Source: Rhodobacterales bacterium
GTDB taxonomy: Bacteria > Pseudomonadota > Alphaproteobacteria > Rhodobacterales > Rhodobacteraceae
Direction of reading: 5' to 3'
Assembly (NCBI GenBank): GCA_038323615.1
Contig: JBBQHC010000002.1
Span: 5,015 to 69,014 of the forward strand
Length of the DNA stretch: 64,000 nucleotides
Shown here: in pieces, positions 29,420 through 34,881 of the stretch
How positions within the stretch are numbered: the first letter of the stretch is position 1
Layout of the letters: each line of letters starts with the position of its first letter
Notes under the pieces: generated by a model
Seen by the model: the letters and a program-made list of their open reading frames with translations, nothing else
What the model was told of the DNA's origin: nothing
Databases searched by the model: none
Position numbers and translations under genes: made by a program

Positions 29420-30265
29420 ATGAAACTGCTGCGTTTTGGCCCGCTGGGGCAGGAAAAACCGGGGCTTTTGGCCGATGACGGTACGATGCGCGATCTGTCG
29501 GGCGTCGTTGCCGATATCGGCGGCGATGTGCTGTCGGATGCGGGGCTGGCGGCGCTGCGCAAGGTCGATCCCGCGACCCTGCCGGTGGTGCCCGAGGGCA
29601 CCCGTTTGGGGGCTTGCGTCGCGGGCACCGGCAAAATGATCTGTATCGGGCTCAACTACTCCGACCATGCCGCCGAGACGGGGATGAAGGTGCCGCCGGA
29701 GCCGATCATTTTCATGAAGGCAACCAGCGCTATCTGCGGACCAGATGACCCGATCATCATCCCGCGCGGGTCCCAAAAGACCGATTGGGAGGTCGAGCTG
29801 GCCGTCATCATCGGCACCCGTGCCAAATACGTCACCAAGGCCGATGCGCTGAAGCATGTCGCGGGCTATGCCGTGACTAACGACGTGTCCGAACGGGCGT
29901 TTCAGACCGAGCGGTCGGGGCAGTGGACCAAGGGCAAATCCTGCGACAACTTTGGTCAGTTGGGGCCGGTTCTGGTGACCCGCGACGGGGTGCCAGATCC
30001 GCAGGATCTGGCGATGTGGCTGACGGTGAACGGGGTGAAAAGGCAGGACGGATCGACCCGCACGATGGTTTTCGGCGTGGCGCATCTGGTCAGCTACCTA
30101 AGCCAGTTCATGACCCTGCATCCGGGCGACGTGATTTCCACCGGCACCCCTCCGGGTGTTGGCATGGGGCAAAAACCGCAGGTGTTTCTAAAGCCCGGCG
30201 ACGTTGTCGAACTTGGGATCGCCGGGTTGGGCCAACAGCGGCAGAATGTGATCGCCGACACCTAA
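29420..30265 (+). CDS. fumarylacetoacetate hydrolase (FAH) family protein
   Basis: CIGLNYSDHA, WEVELAVIIG, GTPPGVG. Confidence 0.85.
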   Translation: MKLLRFGPLGQEKPGLLADDGTMRDLSGVVADIGGDVLSDAGLAALRKVDPATLPVVPEGTRLGACVAGTGKMICIGLNYSDHAAETGMKVPPEPIIFMKATSAICGPDDPIIIPRGSQKTDWEVELAVIIGTRAKYVTKADALKHVAGYAVTNDVSERAFQTERSGQWTKGKSCDNFGQLGPVLVTRDGVPDPQDLAMWLTVNGVKRQDGSTRTMVFGVAHLVSYLSQFMTLHPGDVISTGTPPGVGMGQKPQVFLKPGDVVELGIAGLGQQRQNVIADT

Positions 30266-31203
30266 GTCCAGAAAAACCGGGTAAGGTGATAAAAGACGGG
30301 CGCGGCGAAAACGACTGAATCGAGTTGATCAACAAATCCGCCCTGACCGGGGATCAGGTGCGACCAGTCCTTGACACCGCGATCCCGCTTGATCGCGGCA
30401 AAGACAATATTGCCGCCCATGCCGACCAGCGACGCCGCCCCCGCCATCGCCATCGCGGGCAGGATGCCAAAAGGCGTCAGCCAGGCCAGCGCGGCCCCGA
30501 TCAGCATCGCCGATCCGACGCCACAGATCATCCCTTCGAGGGTTTTCGGTGACAGGCCGTGCGCGATCCTAGTGCGCCCAATCCGGCGGCCAAAGAAGTA
30601 TTCGAGCAGGTCGCCGCATTGCACGACGATGACAAGGAACGGGATGAGAAGGATCGCCCGGTCGCCGTAGCCCGGGACGTCGAGCGTCATCAGCGCCGGC
30701 ACATGGCTGACGCAAAAGACGGTGATCATCAGCGCCCATTGGGTTTCAGCGACCCGGATCAGGAACCGATGCGCATCGCCGCGCAGGGCCGAGACGATGG
30801 GCAGCAGCAGGAAGGCATAGACCGGGATAAAGACGGTCAGCAGGCCGCTCCACCCCATGCCGACAAAGAGGTATTGCAGCGGCAGGACGACGAAGAACGC
30901 CAGTGCCAGCGACAGGTGATCGGCCCGGACCTTGGTCGTGAGCGTCAGAAATTCCCGCAGGGCGGCAAAGGATGCGAAGCCGAACAGCAGCACGACGCCA
31001 AAGCGCCCGATGATCAGCGCCAGCGACAGCAGTATGACCATGCCCCACCAGCTTTGAACCCGCAGCATATAGGTTTCGAGGACCGGGTTGACGGTGTCGA
31101 CGGGTTGGCGGGCGCGGACGAATTCGCCAAAAAACGTCAGCACCAGCAGGATGCCGCAACCGGCCAGCGACAACAGGATCAGGTCGAGGGTGGTTTCGCT
31201 CAT
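30262..31203 (-). CDS. phosphatidate cytidylyltransferase family protein (CdsA paralogue with variant signature)
   Basis: Polytopic membrane protein whose C-terminal signature is KRDRGVKDWSHLIPGQGGFVDQLDS, versus the canonical K-x-x-x-x-KD...PGHGG..DR.DS. Confidence 0.75.
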   Translation of the reverse strand: MSETTLDLILLSLAGCGILLVLTFFGEFVRARQPVDTVNPVLETYMLRVQSWWGMVILLSLALIIGRFGVVLLFGFASFAALREFLTLTTKVRADHLSLALAFFVVLPLQYLFVGMGWSGLLTVFIPVYAFLLLPIVSALRGDAHRFLIRVAETQWALMITVFCVSHVPALMTLDVPGYGDRAILLIPFLVIVVQCGDLLEYFFGRRIGRTRIAHGLSPKTLEGMICGVGSAMLIGAALAWLTPFGILPAMAMAGAASLVGMGGNIVFAAIKRDRGVKDWSHLIPGQGGFVDQLDSVVFAAPVFYHLTRFFWT

Positions 31204-31844
31204 GACGCCACCGATGGCGCGAGGGCGGCGAGGGATGCACTGGCGCGGGCCAGAAACGCATCTTTGGTTTCGTCAGTGTTGACCTTTATCGGGGGCCCGA
31301 AGGTCACGGTGCAGATCAACGGCAGCGGGATCACCTCGCCCTTGGGCATGATGGTGTTGAGGTTGGCGATCCATGTCGGCACCAGATCGACACCGGGGCG
31401 GGCCTTGCCGATGTTGTAGATGCCGGCCTTGAACGGCAGTAGCAGGTCGTCGCCCATGTTGCGCTTGCCTTCGGGGAAAATGATCAGCGATGACCCGTCG
31501 TCGATGGCGGCGATGATCTTTTCCATCGGGTTGTCATTTACCTCGGGGCGGCGATCAATCAGCACCGCCTTGAAAATGTCGCGCCCGGCAAAGGCGCGCA
31601 GGCGGCCGGTCAGCCAGTAATCGGCGGCGGCGACGGGCCTTGTCTGGCGGCGCAGGGCGGGCGGCAGGACTGACCAGATCATCGGCATATCGCCGTTGCT
31701 GGTGTGGTTGGCGAAATAGACGCGCTGGCGCGGCACAGGTTCGATGCCTTGCCAGTCGGCCCGCACAGCGGTGATGAAACCGGCAAACAGCCGGATCGCC
31801 TGTCCGGCGATTTCGGCTGCGACATTGGTGAGAAAGCGGTTCAT
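31200..31844 (-). CDS. lysophospholipid (1-acylglycerol-3-phosphate-type) acyltransferase family protein
   Basis: NHTSNGD (H-x4-D) and FPEGKR motifs. Start set at ATG 31844 (214 aa). Its stop overlaps the downstream cdsA-like start (ATGA). Confidence 0.75.
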   Translation of the reverse strand: MNRFLTNVAAEIAGQAIRLFAGFITAVRADWQGIEPVPRQRVYFANHTSNGDMPMIWSVLPPALRRQTRPVAAADYWLTGRLRAFAGRDIFKAVLIDRRPEVNDNPMEKIIAAIDDGSSLIIFPEGKRNMGDDLLLPFKAGIYNIGKARPGVDLVPTWIANLNTIMPKGEVIPLPLICTVTFGPPIKVNTDETKDAFLARASASLAALAPSVAS

Positions 31845-31873
31845 GGATTTACCCTGACGTGGCGGCGCGGCTT

Positions 31874-31914
31874 TGAAAAGGGGATGCCCCGCCCGTTTGT
31901 GGGGCAGGGCATCC
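31874..31914 (-). terminator. intrinsic terminator after yiaAB
   Basis: On the minus strand, GGATGCCCTGCCC...GGGCGGGGCATCC stem followed by CCTTTTC. Confidence 0.55.
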
Positions 31915-31920
31915 GGGGTC

Positions 31921-32205
31921 TTAGTTTTTGTCGACGTATTCAGAGAGCATCCGCTCGTTGCGGGCCTCCTCAAGCCGCTGGATGCGGTCTTCGGACAGGC
32001 GGTCGTCAAAGCGGTATTTGACGAAATTGACCAGCGCCATACAGAGCATCAGGACGCCGATGGCCCAGTAGCCTTTGGTCGACAGCGGCACGTCGGGGGA
32101 CATGTAAAGCGAGGCGGCCAGCATGAACAAGGCGACGATCACGCCGACGAGGTTGAACAGCATGATGACGGCATTATCGGAACGGGTGGGGTTCATTTTT
32201 ATCAT
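31921..32205 (-). CDS. YiaA/YiaB-type small inner-membrane protein
   Basis: Two hydrophobic helices (IMLFNLVGVIVALFMLAASLY; GYWAIGVLMLCMALVNF) and a charged C-tail. The likely true start is the second ATG at 32196, 8 nt after AAAGGA. Confidence 0.7.
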   Translation of the reverse strand: MIKMNPTRSDNAVIMLFNLVGVIVALFMLAASLYMSPDVPLSTKGYWAIGVLMLCMALVNFVKYRFDDRLSEDRIQRLEEARNERMLSEYVDKN

Positions 32206-32223
32206 CCTTTGATGGGGTTGAGG

Positions 32224-32904
32224 TTAGTGTTGTTTGGCTTTCAGCCGGGCCAGCACATCGTTGGCTGTGGTCCGGGTCGCGGTGCCGAAACCCTGATCCG
32301 ACATGCGGTCGGCAAGGCTGTCGTGGGTCAGGTCGCGGTCGATGTCGCGCAGGATTTCCGACTGTTCGAACGGGTCGTCGCGGCCAAGGACGCGGGCGAT
32401 CAGCTCTTCGGCCTCTTCGACCGAGGCTGACCCGCGATTGGTGGAATTCAGACGCACCTGAATATCCTGTTCGCGGCGCACCGCGCGGGCCTGAATCGCG
32501 CCTTGTTTCAGGTCGATGATCCGGCGATGCCCAGCTTCGATCGAGGTGCGCAGGCGCATCACCTTGTGGTCCAGCCGGGCAAGGGTTTCGGCCCTTATCG
32601 CCGCCTCGTTTTCCATCTGCGCGATGGCGCGGGCGGCCTCGGTCGTCATGTCTGCACGGTCGTTGTCCAGCGCATCCTGGGCGCGGGCCAGCATGTCGGC
32701 GATGCGCGAATCCAGCGCCTGTTTCTGCCGCTCTTCGCTGCGCTGCCTTTGGATCAGGCTGGCCAGCGTCGCCTTGGCGGCCTTGAGGCTGGCGTCGGCT
32801 TCGCGGATCTTCTGGTCGATCAGTTCGATGGCAAAGGCGTCGCGCACACGGTCTTCGGCGCGGGCATTGGCTCCGGTGATCAGGGTCGCAAGGGTCTTGA
32901 ACAT
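32224..32904 (-). CDS. pspA: PspA/IM30 family protein
   Basis: 226 aa starting at ATG 32904, after AAAGGAA. N-terminus MFKTLATLITGANARAED...IELIDQKIREA, followed by long coiled-coil heptads typical of PspA/Vipp1. Confidence 0.85.
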   Translation of the reverse strand: MFKTLATLITGANARAEDRVRDAFAIELIDQKIREADASLKAAKATLASLIQRQRSEERQKQALDSRIADMLARAQDALDNDRADMTTEAARAIAQMENEAAIRAETLARLDHKVMRLRTSIEAGHRRIIDLKQGAIQARAVRREQDIQVRLNSTNRGSASVEEAEELIARVLGRDDPFEQSEILRDIDRDLTHDSLADRMSDQGFGTATRTTANDVLARLKAKQH

Positions 32905-32919
32905 CGTCGGTTCCTTTCG

Positions 32920-32989
32920 TGAACACTGTTCATGAATTGCATATAGCAAGTCAGTGAACGTCGTTCAAGATAAAAATGAACGACGTTCA
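32920..32989 (-). promoter_or_regulatory. pspA promoter with three TGAAC-N3-GTTCA operators
   Basis: Palindromes at 32920-32932, 32955-32967 and 32977-32989. On the minus strand, TTGAAC (32968-32963)-N17-TATATG (32945-32940) forms a sigma-70-like promoter. One operator overlaps the -35 and one lies downstream of the -10. Confidence 0.55.
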
Positions 32990-33592
32990 GGAAACCGATT
33001 GTTTCTGGGTCAGTTGTCGCAGCAGCAGGCCGATCATCCGGTCGATCTGTTCAGCAGGGACGCCGGAACTGGCGCGATCCAACCCCAGCAGGACAATGCC
33101 GTGAACCGATGAAAACAGCGCACGGGTCATCAGCGCCCGGTCGTTGACCGCCATTTGGGGAAAGATTACCGCCAGCGGCGCGTCGATATAGGCCAGCAGG
33201 CGGGCCATGTCGCGCAGATACCAGTCGGGCGCGTCCTGCCCGGCAGGGCGGTCCACATCGAACAGCGCCCGCCAGACGTTGTGATTGTCGGTGGCAAAGC
33301 GGTGATAGCCGCCCGACATGGCGACCAATTGTTCAACCGGGTCCATCGGCGCCTCGGCGAGGGCCTCGCTCACCGTTGCGCCCAGACGTTCAAAGGTGCG
33401 GGCGTTGACCGCCAGCACAAGGTCGGTCAGGTCGCCAAAGACGTTGTAGATCGCCCCGACAGCGCAGCCCGCCTGCGCCGCAAGGTCACGCGCCCGCAGG
33501 GCAGGCAGCCCTTCGGCGGTGATCGTCGCCTCGGCGATGTCGATGAGTTTTTCACGCAGCGCCTTGCGACGCTTTTCGACGATGCCGGCCAT
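32987..33592 (-). CDS. TetR/AcrR family transcriptional regulator
   Basis: N-terminal HTH (LRARDLAAQAGCAVGAIYNVFGDLTDL), 201 aa. Confidence 0.9.
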   Translation of the reverse strand: MAGIVEKRRKALREKLIDIAEATITAEGLPALRARDLAAQAGCAVGAIYNVFGDLTDLVLAVNARTFERLGATVSEALAEAPMDPVEQLVAMSGGYHRFATDNHNVWRALFDVDRPAGQDAPDWYLRDMARLLAYIDAPLAVIFPQMAVNDRALMTRALFSSVHGIVLLGLDRASSGVPAEQIDRMIGLLLRQLTQKQSVS

Positions 33593-33603
33593 TGGATCCT
33601 CCT

Positions 33604-33616
33604 TGAACGTAGTTCA
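33604..33616 (-). promoter_or_regulatory. fourth TGAAC-N3-GTTCA operator, upstream of tetR
   Basis: On the minus strand TGAACTACGTTCA sits directly before the AGGAGG Shine-Dalgarno of tetR, implying autoregulation. Confidence 0.5.
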
Positions 33617-33654
33617 TGAATAGACCGCGCAGGCGGCAATTGAAACCCCCCCCG

Positions 33655-34881
33655 CTAGGCCTTGATCGGCGCACCGCCCGCAAAGTTGTTGGCGTCATGA
33701 TAGCTGATCGGCGCTTCCTGCATCTGCAAATGCAACCCGGTGTCGGTCAGCGGATGGGCGCGGGCCAACGCCTCGTCGAAATCAATGCCAAGGCCCGGTC
33801 CGGTCGGCAGTTCGATATATCCACCCTCGACCCGGATCGTGTTCTTGATCAGGGCGCTGTGGAACGGCGTCTCGATGGTTTCGGCCATCAGGATGTTGGG
33901 GATGCTGGCGGCAAGTTGGATATTCGCCGCCCATTCGACGGGACCGGCATAAAGATGCGGGGCCATCTGGGCGTTGTAGGTCTCCGCCAGCGCCGCAATC
34001 TTCTTGCCCTCCCAGATGCCCCCGGACCGCCCAAGTGCCGGTTGCAGGATGCTGACGCCGTGACGCAGCACTTCGGCGAATTCGGCCTTGGTCGTCAGCC
34101 GCTCGCCCGTCGCCACGGGGATCCGCACCGCAGCCGCGACCCGCGCCAAATCGGCGGGATTGTCGGGCGGCACGGGTTCCTCAAACCACAGCGGGCTGTA
34201 GGGTTCCAGCGCCTGCCCCAGCCGGATCGCGCCGCCGGTGGAAAACTGCCCGTGGGTGCCGAACAGGATGTCGGCCCGGTCGCCCACTGCCTGGCGCACC
34301 GCCTTGCAGAACGCGACCGACAGGGAAATGTCGGACAGCGCGGGCATGTGGCCGCCGCGGATCGTATAGGGTCCGGCGGGGTCGAATTTCACTGCCGTAT
34401 AGCCCTTGTCCACCATCGCCAGCGCCGCCTCGGCGGCCATGTCGGGGCTGGCCCAGAAATCGGGCAGGGCGTGGCCCTTTTGCGGATAAAGATAGGTATA
34501 GGCCCGCACCCGGTCGTTCATCCGGCCGCCGATCAGGGCATGCACCGGGCGGTCGCGATCCTTGCCCAGAATGTCCCAGCAGGCGATCTCAAGGCCACTC
34601 CACGCTCCCATCACCGTCAGATCGGGGCGCTGGGTGAACCCGGCGGAATAGACCCGGCGGAACATCAGCTCGATATTCTCGGGATTCTCGCCAGCCATAT
34701 GGCGTTCAAAAACGTCGCGGATGACGGCCTTCATCGCCTCTGGCCCGACGCTGGAGGCATAACATTCGCCATACCCAACGACGCCGGTGTCGGTCGTCAC
34801 CTTGGGGATGATCCAGTACCGCCCGCCCCAGCCGGGAGCCGGGGGCGAGGTGATGATGACATCGAGATCGGCGAGTTTCAT
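33655..34881 (-). CDS. enolase-superfamily protein (mandelate racemase/muconate lactonizing family; sugar-acid dehydratase-like)
   Basis: 408 aa with the family hallmarks (GYGECY, LEIACWDILGK, WFEEP, VATGERL). Confidence 0.85.
   Translation of the reverse strand: MKLADLDVIITSPPAPGWGGRYWIIPKVTTDTGVVGYGECYASSVGPEAMKAVIRDVFERHMAGENPENIELMFRRVYSAGFTQRPDLTVMGAWSGLEIACWDILGKDRDRPVHALIGGRMNDRVRAYTYLYPQKGHALPDFWASPDMAAEAALAMVDKGYTAVKFDPAGPYTIRGGHMPALSDISLSVAFCKAVRQAVGDRADILFGTHGQFSTGGAIRLGQALEPYSPLWFEEPVPPDNPADLARVAAAVRIPVATGERLTTKAEFAEVLRHGVSILQPALGRSGGIWEGKKIAALAETYNAQMAPHLYAGPVEWAANIQLAASIPNILMAETIETPFHSALIKNTIRVEGGYIELPTGPGLGIDFDEALARAHPLTDTGLHLQMQEAPISYHDANNFAGGAPIKA

What the first reader, a model, noticed from the sequence alone, without database searches (positions are those of the whole stretch)
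32920..33616. TetR-controlled pspA: four TGAAC-N3-GTTCA operators bracket tetR and overlap a sigma-70-type pspA promoter
Perfect 13-bp palindromes lie at 32920, 32955 and 32977, between the tetR stop and the pspA start, and at 33604, just before the tetR Shine-Dalgarno. On the transcribed strand TTGAAC-N17-TATATG forms a promoter whose -35 is inside one operator, with another operator downstream of the -10. Canonical Psp systems use the sigma-54 activator PspF. Here pspA-yiaAB appears to be under TetR-type repression with autoregulation, implying a small-molecule or lipid signal rather than the PspF/PspBC relay.
Basis: partly seen in the sequence, partly recalled or inferred. Interest (0 to 1): 0.6.

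Follow-up and report, generated by a model that had tools for sequence, protein, structure and literature searches.

The report
TetR repressor controlling a PspA operon
Four identical 13-base palindromes mark where a TetR-type repressor most likely shuts off its own gene and a PspA membrane-stress operon. This wiring replaces the usual PspF/sigma-54 control in about one in six genera sampled in the family Rhodobacteraceae, and I found no paper that describes it.

Summary
There are four perfect TGAAC-N3-GTTCA palindromes, at 32920, 32955, 32977 and 33604. They are the only ones in the 64-kb window and four of eight in the 3.2-Mb assembly.

On the minus strand the genes are tetR, pspA and a yiaAB-like gene, followed by a terminator. 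Three operators cover a sigma-70-type pspA promoter (CTTGAA-N17-CTATAT): one upstream of the -35, one on the -35, and one at the predicted transcription start. The fourth operator directly follows the tetR -10.

The footprint is conserved:
- In 76 related species plus the window, 75 of 77 pspA genes keep a perfect proximal operator and 74 of 77 a perfect distal one.
- 79 of 81 tetR genes keep their operator.
- The N3 spacer and the promoter spacer vary freely.

Across 400 Rhodobacteraceae genera, 64 have this PspA subfamily, and 58 of those carry the double operator. I found neither in other alphaproteobacterial families sampled. The assembly shows no PspF, PspC or RpoN.

An orthologue has a solved structure (PDB 3CJD) that no held paper mentions. 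The inducing signal is unknown.

This scan noted the same system earlier on other genomes. It is a new regulatory variant of the Psp response built from an ordinary TetR switch.

The parts
33641..33646 (-). weak -35-like element of the tetR promoter (GTTTCA; relatives have cTTTyCa)
   Evidence: Read from the sequence. The block is conserved at the same distance in 79 related loci whatever gene lies upstream.
33618..33623 (-). -10 element of the tetR promoter (CTATTC; relatives have CTATCA/CTATCC)
   Evidence: It is followed after one base by the operator.
33604..33616 (.). operator O_T (TGAACGTAGTTCA), between the tetR -10 and the tetR ribosome-binding site; the autoregulation site
   Evidence: A perfect palindrome lies less than 40 bp upstream of the tetR ATG in 79 of 81 loci.
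32987..33592 (-). tetR, a 201-aa TetR-family regulator; AGGAGG at 33603-33598, ATG at 33592
   Evidence: Pfam TetR_N 24.6 bits and TetR_C_33 31.6 bits. PDB 3CJD scores 208 bits at 56-57% identity. AlphaFold model pLDDT 90.8, TM-score to 3CJD 0.86/0.95.
32977..32989 (.). distal operator O_D (about -55 to -43 of the pspA promoter), overlapping the tetR stop codon
   Evidence: Perfect in 74 of 77 loci, 56-59 bp upstream of the proximal operator. It moves with pspA when a gene is inserted after tetR (L010 and L012).
32964..32969 (-). -35 element of the pspA promoter (CTTGAA)
   Evidence: CTTG reaches 1.4-1.8 bits. Consensus CTTGAC-N17-CTATAT from PMC2873474.
32955..32967 (.). middle operator O_M, overlapping the -35 (about -33 to -21)
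   Evidence: Perfect in only 4 of 77 loci of the Yoonia group, but present in most other Rhodobacteraceae genera that carry the system.
32941..32946 (-). -10 element of the pspA promoter (CTATAT; relatives have GCTATCT)
32920..32932 (.). proximal operator O_P, starting 8 nt after the -10 and so covering the predicted transcription start
   Evidence: Perfect in 75 of 77 loci.
32224..32904 (-). pspA, a 226-aa PspA/IM30-family protein; the real start is ATG 32904 (ribosome-binding site AAGGA at 32916-32912), not the upstream TTG of the longest ORF
   Evidence: Pfam PF04012 50.1 bits against a cut-off of 33.9. It is the only PspA_IM30 gene in the assembly. The start is conserved in relatives.
31921..32205 (-). 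yiaAB-like gene: 94 aa, two transmembrane helices plus a charged C-terminal helix; conserved partner of pspA
   Evidence: Pfam YiaAB 20.1 bits, below the cut-off of 26.6. 15 of 19 orthologues match at E <= 0.01. The partner gene in the paralogous module scores 47.5 bits. It is syntenic in nearly all loci.
31875..31914 (-). intrinsic terminator ending the pspA-yiaAB operon: a 13-bp G+C-rich stem followed by CCUUUUC
   Evidence: RNA fold -29.3 kcal/mol, z = -3.5, 0 of 200 shuffles as stable.

Best explanation
A TetR-family repressor (window 33592-32987, minus strand) binds 13-bp TGAAC-N3-GTTCA palindromes, probably as one dimer per site.

Three sites occupy the sigma-70-type promoter of the two-gene operon pspA-yiaAB. 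One lies just upstream of the -35, one on the -35, and one over the transcription start. Bound repressor would therefore block RNA polymerase from binding or from clearing the promoter. A fourth site directly after the -10 of the tetR promoter makes the repressor limit its own synthesis.

A signal that releases the repressor would switch on tetR and pspA-yiaAB together. No terminator separates the two, so tetR transcripts could also read into pspA. PspA (an ESCRT-III-like membrane-repair protein) and its small membrane partner would then act at the inner membrane.

In this genome the same repressor probably also controls a 405-aa secreted protein of unknown function on contig C19.

What is shown:
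- the sites, their placement on the promoters, and their conservation;
- their association with the tetR and pspA genes.

What is inferred:
- that this TetR is the binding protein;
- that it represses;
- that the releasing signal is a hydrophobic small molecule (lipid, fatty acyl derivative or membrane-active compound) held in the C-terminal domain.
For: The sites are real and non-random.

Phylogenetic footprint. In 76 related species plus the window, 75 of 77 pspA loci have a perfect proximal operator and 74 of 77 a perfect distal one. 79 of 81 tetR loci have a perfect operator. Half-sites carry 2 bits of information per position, while the N3 spacer and the promoter spacer carry about 0. The -35 CTTG and the -10 GCTATCT are also conserved.

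When a gene is inserted between tetR and pspA (L010, L012), both operators stay with pspA.

Family-wide search, one genome per genus. The double-operator pattern is present in 75 of 401 genomes, and the reversed-pattern control gives 0. 24 of 30 fetched loci lie next to a PspA homologue, and about 22 of those also have a TetR gene alongside. Of 64 genera with this PspA, 58 have the pattern. Of 336 without it, 16 do.

A paralogous, divergently arranged tetR/pspA-yiaAB module uses the same palindrome and keeps the same recognition-helix sequence, AGCA(V/L)GA(I/L)Y.

Precedent. The BioQ box is TGAAC-N3-GTTCA and is bound by a TetR dimer (PMC3398298, PMC9210681). Structural neighbours KstR and RolR use GAAC/GTTC half-sites (for RolR; KstR motif from memory).

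The protein has a TetR fold.

No PspF, PspC or RpoN was found in the assembly.

Second target. Two abutting operators overlap CTTGAC-N17-CTATGT on C19 and are conserved in the nearest orthologues.
Against: The tetR -35 is weak, and the generic promoter scan found no E. coli-type promoter.

The middle operator is missing in most of the Yoonia group, so three sites are not essential.

The distal and proximal operators are 57-58 bp apart, about 5.5 helical turns. That places them on opposite faces of the DNA and argues against simple looping between them.

The ligand is unknown. The fold neighbours that bind acyl-CoA are only 15-23% identical.

Some genomes keep tetR and its operator after losing pspA (L021, L072, L076, L083), so pspA is not its only role.

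Related genomes are not independent, so the counts overstate the statistical weight.
Confidence: 0.8

Rival explanations
1. The layout is the same, but the TetR is released by something other than a small molecule. One option is a protein partner. PspA or the YiaAB-like membrane protein would sequester or free the repressor when the membrane is damaged, much as PspA controls PspF. The other option is oxidation or alkylation of the single, invariant cysteine (C43) in the DNA-binding helix.
For: Canonical Psp control works through a PspA-regulator contact (PspA-PspF; PMC3128695, listed). C43 is invariant in 27 orthologues and is kept in the paralogous module. The YiaAB-like partner has an invariant charged C-terminal helix that faces the cytoplasm. 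Some TetR proteins are controlled by proteins or oxidants (AmtR-GlnK and SlmA-FtsZ from memory; AtsR and oxidant, PMC9210681).
Against: The C-terminal domain is a standard TetR ligand domain with many invariant aromatic residues (W107, F111, W124, Y125, H164). C43 sits where other TetR proteins have a buried hydrophobic residue, so it may be purely structural. No tool here could test protein-protein contacts.
Confidence: 0.13
2. The palindromes are bound by some regulator other than the neighbouring TetR. The TetR would then be a passenger with a different, unseen operator.
For: No binding data exist. The same palindrome also occurs next to unrelated TetR genes in other alphaproteobacterial families (L125, L128). 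It is the BioQ box in Actinobacteria. The motif is therefore not unique to one protein.
Against: The palindrome precedes tetR itself in 79 of 81 loci. The operator cluster and a TetR gene are adjacent in about 22 of 24 PspA loci found by pattern alone. The paralogous module keeps both the motif and the recognition helix. Every other known user of this motif is also a TetR protein.
Confidence: 0.04
3. The TetR acts mainly as an activator, or as both activator and repressor, of pspA. It would work through the distal site upstream of the -35, with the downstream sites only fine-tuning.
For: The distal operator, centred near -49, is where class I activators bind. It is as well conserved as the proximal site. 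FasR, a fold neighbour, is annotated as an activator.
Against: A perfect site on the transcription start in 75 of 77 loci, and on the -35 in most genera, is a repressor layout. The tetR and C19 promoters have operators only within or downstream of the core promoter. The pspA promoter is already close to consensus and should not need activation.
Confidence: 0.03

Closest known systems
PDB 3CJD: putative TetR regulator YP_510936.1 of Jannaschia sp. CCS1 (structural genomics, 1.79 A, released 2008)
   Same: It is an orthologue: 208 bits, 56-57% identity over the full length, TM-score 0.86/0.95 to the model. Its closest genomic relatives (64-81% identity) sit in the same tetR-pspA-yiaAB layout, with one plus three operators in 8 of 10 loci.
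   Different: It was deposited without a function, and no paper in the library mentions the entry. I could not see whether a ligand was trapped in the crystal. I also did not retrieve the Jannaschia locus itself.
BioQ, the TetR-type repressor of biotin genes in Corynebacterium and Mycobacterium
   Same: The operator consensus is identical, TGAAC-N3-GTTCA, and is bound by one dimer. It is autoregulated and works by repression (PMC3398298, PMC9210681).
   Different: BioQ belongs to a different phylum and controls a different regulon (biotin synthesis and uptake). No protein orthology was shown or tested here. The resemblance lies in the DNA site, not in function.
Canonical proteobacterial Psp system (PspF / sigma-54 / PspA-B-C)
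   Same: The output is the same: a PspA/IM30 effector encoded with a small membrane partner and induced as a unit.
   Different: The assembly has no PspF, PspB/C or RpoN. The promoter is sigma-70 type. The regulator is a one-component repressor, where the canonical system uses an AAA+ activator held in check by PspA. This PspA does not match the NCBIfam pspA equivalog.
ClgR-PspA-PspM-PspN of Mycobacterium and LiaRS-LiaIH of Bacillus
   Same: Both are PspF-independent ways of controlling a PspA homologue. A small membrane protein (PspM, LiaI) is encoded beside it. The survey paper reads ClgR as a repressor of the PspA homologues (PMC11237479).
   Different: The regulator families differ: ClgR has a Cro-like HTH and LiaRS is a two-component system. 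The main text of that survey of PSP gene neighbourhoods does not mention TetR.
KstR, FasR and PfmR: TetR regulators, of which KstR and FasR are crystallised with lipid or steroid CoA thioesters
   Same: They are the nearest characterised structures after 3CJD (Foldseek E about 1e-5, TM-score 0.6-0.7). They give the best NCBIfam matches in the HTH region. KstR operators share GAAC/GTTC half-sites (from memory).
   Different: Identity is only 15-23%. They control lipid catabolism or fatty-acid synthesis rather than a membrane-stress effector. A shared type of ligand is a guess.

Membership tests
TetR family of transcriptional regulators | N-terminal TetR-type helix-turn-helix domain | tested here: met
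   Pfam PF00440 scores 24.6 bits against a cut-off of 24, over residues 16-62. The HTH region also matches AcrR, KstR, BetI and FasR models.
TetR family of transcriptional regulators | All-helical C-terminal ligand and dimerisation domain, and the overall nine- or ten-helix fold | tested here: met
   PF13305 TetR_C_33 scores 31.6 bits against a cut-off of 26.8. The AlphaFold model has pLDDT 90.8 and ten helices. Its top structural matches are all TetR proteins, led by 3CJD at TM-score 0.86/0.95.
TetR family of transcriptional regulators | Palindromic operator of about 13-15 bp on the promoters of its own gene and its target | tested here: met
   Four perfect palindromes lie on the two promoters. 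They are conserved in 74-79 of 77-81 related loci.
TetR family of transcriptional regulators | Sequence-specific DNA binding that an inducer relieves | not testable with these tools
   This needs a gel-shift or footprint and a ligand screen.
PspA/IM30 (bacterial ESCRT-III-like) family | Match to the family profile over its whole length | tested here: met
   PF04012 scores 50.1 bits against a cut-off of 33.9, covering profile positions 3-218 of 220. The same hit appears in the genome search.
PspA/IM30 (bacterial ESCRT-III-like) family | Close sequence relationship to characterised PspA proteins (NCBIfam pspA equivalog, solved PspA or Vipp1 structures) | tested here: not met
   There is no NCBIfam pspA hit and no PDB sequence hit at E <= 0.01. 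This is a divergent subfamily. It was found at E <= 1e-15 in 64 of 400 Rhodobacteraceae genera and in none of 149 other alphaproteobacterial families sampled.
Canonical Psp regulon (PspF / sigma-54 / PspBC) | A PspF enhancer-binding protein encoded in the genome | tested here: not met
   The best TIGR02974 match scores 182.6 bits against a cut-off of 443.6, which indicates generic NtrC-type proteins on C173 and C9. The assembly is 89.7% complete.
Canonical Psp regulon (PspF / sigma-54 / PspBC) | Sigma-54 (RpoN) and a PspC membrane sensor | tested here: not met
   No match to TIGR02395 or PF04024 in the assembly. An incomplete genome does not prove absence. PspB was not searched.
BioQ regulon | TGAAC-N3-GTTCA operator | tested here: met
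   PMC3398298.
BioQ regulon | Operators upstream of biotin synthesis or transport genes | tested here: not met
   The eight sites in the genome lie at tetR, pspA and a secreted-protein gene, plus two inside unrelated ORFs. None is at a bio gene. This is not filed as BioQ.
YiaAB two-helix membrane proteins (PF05360) | Match to the YiaAB profile above its cut-off | tested here: inconclusive
   The window protein scores 20.1 bits against a cut-off of 26.6. 15 of 19 orthologues match at E <= 0.01, best 8.7e-6. The partner gene of the paralogous module scores 47.5 bits.

The most novel reading that the evidence does not exclude
The repressor would not be a conventional drug or ligand sensor. It would be the readout of a partner-switch: the PspA protein, or the cytoplasmic tail of the YiaAB-like membrane protein, holds or releases the TetR according to the state of the membrane. 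This would rebuild the PspA-PspF feedback logic with an unrelated one-component repressor. It would make this the first TetR regulator gated by an ESCRT-III-like protein.
Probability: 0.1. Interest if true: 0.75.

Novelty: new variant of a known kind. Interest (0 to 1): 0.5.

Why it matters
What actually triggers the Psp/IM30 membrane-stress response is a long-standing open question. In the enterobacterial system the signal passes through membrane proteins and a PspA-PspF contact, which makes it hard to isolate.

Here the same kind of effector appears to be controlled by a single soluble repressor of a family that normally binds a defined ligand. An orthologue of that repressor already has a crystal structure (3CJD). 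If a ligand exists, it can be found with simple binding assays, and it would name a chemical signal of membrane stress in abundant marine bacteria.

The other genes that carry the same operator are unannotated. They include a 405-aa secreted protein, a polytopic membrane protein of about 400 aa, and small secreted proteins. They would become candidates for new envelope-stress functions.

The switch itself is an ordinary TetR repressor-operator pair.

Tried and rejected
- The generic E. coli-type promoter scan found no promoter in 31800-33800. The promoters only become visible against the alphaproteobacterial consensus and the alignments.
- One-mismatch operator sites in the genome: 77 in total, 26 outside ORFs by a crude GC3 filter. 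They gave no further convincing targets.
- A sigma-54 promoter pattern search at three mismatches or fewer returned chance-level noise, 625 matches against 666 expected, and was not informative.
- Class-wide search for the double operator: three hits in other families, none next to a PspA. They were a different TetR (L125), a TetR divergent from a YjbQ-like gene (L128), and one locus (L127) with no TetR or PspA match that I did not examine further.
- Literature. Five searches combining PspA or phage shock protein with TetR, YiaA/B or roseobacter names found no description of this wiring. The Zymomonas paper mentions pspA only as one gene raised in a TetR efflux-regulator mutant. The 2010 Psp evolution paper mentions only a Tet-resistance plasmid.
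- Chance or a structural repeat was rejected. A 5-bp stem with a 3-nt loop is too weak to act as an RNA element, and the sites are conserved as DNA palindromes with a free centre.
- The acyltransferase and CdsA-like genes downstream were considered as regulon members and rejected. A strong terminator precedes them, and no operator or half-site lies in their upstream region.

Full report
**What is in the sequence.**

All the genes concerned lie on the minus strand. In order they are:
- an enolase-superfamily gene (34881-33655);
- tetR (33592-32987; TetR_N plus TetR_C_33);
- pspA (32904-32224; PspA_IM30, 50 bits against a cut-off of 34);
- a 94-aa YiaAB-like protein with two transmembrane helices (32205-31921);
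- a strong hairpin followed by CCUUUUC (31914-31875; -29.3 kcal/mol, z = -3.5);
- a separate acyltransferase gene and a CdsA-like gene.

They are the only matches in the window even with one mismatch allowed.

The whole 3.24-Mb assembly has eight. Four are here. Two abut each other in front of a secreted-protein gene on contig C19. Two lie inside ORFs, which is about the number expected by chance from base composition.

**Promoter anatomy.**

The tetR-pspA spacer, read on the minus strand, runs as follows: operator O_D (32989-32977, overlapping the tetR stop codon), TTTTTATC, CTTGAA, a 17-nt spacer, CTATAT, GCAATTCA, operator O_P (32932-32920), CGAAAGGAACCGACG, ATG.

The middle operator O_M (32967-32955) begins inside the -35.

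CTTGAA-N17-CTATAT is one mismatch from the sigma-70 consensus CTTGAC-N17-CTATAT reported for Sinorhizobium meliloti (PMC2873474).

O_P begins 8 nt after the -10, so it covers the predicted start.

Upstream of tetR the order is GTTTCA, 17 nt, CTATTC, A, operator O_T (33616-33604), AGGAGG, ATCCA, ATG.

**Conservation in the nearest clade.**

A search with the TetR protein returned 80 loci from the Yoonia / Loktanella / Octadecabacter group of Rhodobacteraceae (Paracoccaceae). Nearly all keep the order tetR-pspA-yiaAB-acyltransferase-cdsA.

Counting the window as well:
- 75 of 77 pspA genes have a perfect proximal operator;
- 74 of 77 have a perfect distal operator 56-59 bp upstream of it;
- 79 of 81 tetR genes have a perfect operator within 40 bp of the ATG.

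In alignments anchored on the operators, the ten half-site positions are invariant. The three central bases and the promoter spacer carry almost no information. The -35 CTTG and the -10 GCTATCT stand out between them.

The tetR promoter and operator are kept whatever gene lies upstream. tetR therefore has its own autoregulated promoter.

In two species a 136-codon gene has been inserted between tetR and pspA. Both operators stayed with pspA.

**Distribution across the family.**

I searched one genome from each of 400 genera of the family for two palindromes 38-50 bp apart. The pattern was present in 75 of 401 genomes. The reversed pattern, used as a control, matched none.

Most hits outside the Yoonia group carry all three pspA operators, including the one on the -35. 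The three-site layout of this window is therefore the common form.

Of 30 loci fetched, 24 lie beside a PspA homologue, and about 22 of those also have a TetR gene alongside.

A search with the PspA protein over the same 400 genera found it in 64 at E <= 1e-15. Fifty-eight of those 64 have the double operator, at adjacent coordinates, against 16 of 336 genera without it. Related genomes are not independent, so this describes the pattern and is not a statistical test.

Among about 150-200 other alphaproteobacterial families sampled, I found no close homologue of this PspA. The operator pattern hit three genomes there, none next to a PspA homologue. In my samples it is confined to Rhodobacteraceae.

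**A paralogous module.**

Several genera carry a second version in which tetR is divergent from pspA-yiaAB (TetR 38-45% identical, PspA 26-34% identical). It has the same three palindromes. It also has the same recognition-helix sequence, AGCA(V/L)GA(I/L)Y.

This supports the link between this TetR clade and the motif. The partner gene in that module matches the YiaAB profile well (47.5 bits). This lends weight to the weak match of the window protein (20 bits; 15 of 19 orthologues match weakly).

**Other targets.**

On contig C19, two abutting palindromes overlap CTTGAC-N17-CTATGT in front of a 405-aa protein with a signal peptide and no family match. The -10 there is formed by the central TAT of the second palindrome. 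That centre is conserved in this case, unlike the centres elsewhere.

The arrangement is kept in the closest orthologues (48-79% identity) but not in distant ones: 8 of 45 loci have a palindrome. The gene was therefore recruited to the regulon recently.

In other genera the double operator precedes a polytopic membrane protein of about 400 aa or small secreted proteins, none with a Pfam family.

Four relatives have lost pspA-yiaAB but keep tetR and its operator.

**The regulator.**

PDB 3CJD, an unpublished structural-genomics structure from Jannaschia sp. CCS1, is an orthologue. It scores 208 bits at 56-57% identity, with TM-score 0.86/0.95 to an AlphaFold model of pLDDT 90.8.

The nearest genomic relatives of the 3CJD protein sit in the same tetR-pspA-yiaAB layout, with one plus three operators in 8 of 10 loci. 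No paper in the library mentions 3CJD.

After 3CJD, the closest structures are KstR, FasR, Rv0078, EthR2, PfmR and RolR at 15-23% identity. KstR and FasR are crystallised with lipid CoA thioesters. RolR binds TGAAC-N4-GTTCA (PMC9210681).

The palindrome itself is identical to the BioQ box of Actinobacteria, which a TetR dimer binds (PMC3398298, PMC9210681).

**Comparison with canonical Psp control.**

The assembly (89.7% complete) has a single PspA_IM30 gene. It has no PspF above cut-off (183 bits against 444), no PspC and no RpoN.

This PspA matches neither the NCBIfam pspA equivalog nor any solved structure by sequence. It is a divergent subfamily.

The main text of the broad survey of PSP gene neighbourhoods does not mention TetR (PMC11237479). 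Five literature searches found no description of the wiring.

**Mechanism and confidence.**

I put about 0.8 on the following. This TetR binds the palindromes, represses pspA-yiaAB by occluding the -35 and the start site, and represses itself.

The nature of the releasing signal is open:
- a hydrophobic small molecule is the default for the family and fits the fold neighbours;
- a protein partner (PspA or the YiaAB-like protein), or modification of the invariant C43, cannot be excluded.

**Verdict.**

The switch is an ordinary TetR repressor-operator pair. Its use to control a PspA operon in place of PspF/sigma-54 is a new variant that I could not find described.

This scan recorded the same system on at least four other genomes. 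That neither raises nor lowers the score.

Noticed in passing
own genome, contig C19:14863-16132 (outside the window): Two abutting TGAAC-N3-GTTCA palindromes overlap a CTTGAC-N17-CTATGT promoter in front of a 405-aa signal-peptide protein with no Pfam or NCBIfam match. The arrangement is conserved in the nearest orthologues only (L130-L133, L135).
   Followed up: yes
L087, L092, L099, L103, L109 (other Rhodobacteraceae genera): A paralogous module has tetR divergent from pspA-yiaAB (TetR 38-45% identical, PspA 26-34% identical). It uses the same three palindromes and the same recognition helix. The operator pattern matched at two places in each of G027, G039 and G392; whether any of them carries both modules was not checked. 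If one does, cross-regulation is possible.
   Followed up: partly
L093:57-1268, L094:292-1488, L104:296-1507 (minus strands): In three genera the double operator precedes a conserved polytopic membrane protein of about 400 aa (N-terminus MPHVV-D/N-T..LV) with no Pfam family. It is a candidate further member of the regulon.
   Followed up: partly
L098:1587-1931 and L101:2710-3069: Small secreted proteins with repeated HSAxA motifs lie behind the same operators. In L101 one follows directly after the pspA-yiaAB pair.
   Followed up: no
L021, L072, L076, L083: Four relatives have lost pspA-yiaAB, wholly or partly, but keep tetR with its own operator. In three of the four (L021, L072, L076) the acyltransferase gene follows directly. 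The repressor therefore seems to be retained for other targets.
   Followed up: no
L010:4686-5096 and L012 (Marivivens marinus, Loktanella sp. IMCC34160): A 136-codon gene on the opposite strand has been inserted between tetR and pspA. Both pspA operators moved with pspA.
   Followed up: partly
own genome, contigs C173 and C9: NtrC-type AAA+ regulators are present (up to 183 bits to the PspF model), but no rpoN was found in the 89.7%-complete assembly. Either rpoN is unassembled or these regulators work without sigma-54.
   Followed up: no
window 30262-31847: An acyltransferase gene and a CdsA-like gene overlap by ATGA. They follow the psp module after its terminator and stay syntenic with it in most of the Yoonia group and in some other genera. 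No operator precedes them.
   Followed up: partly
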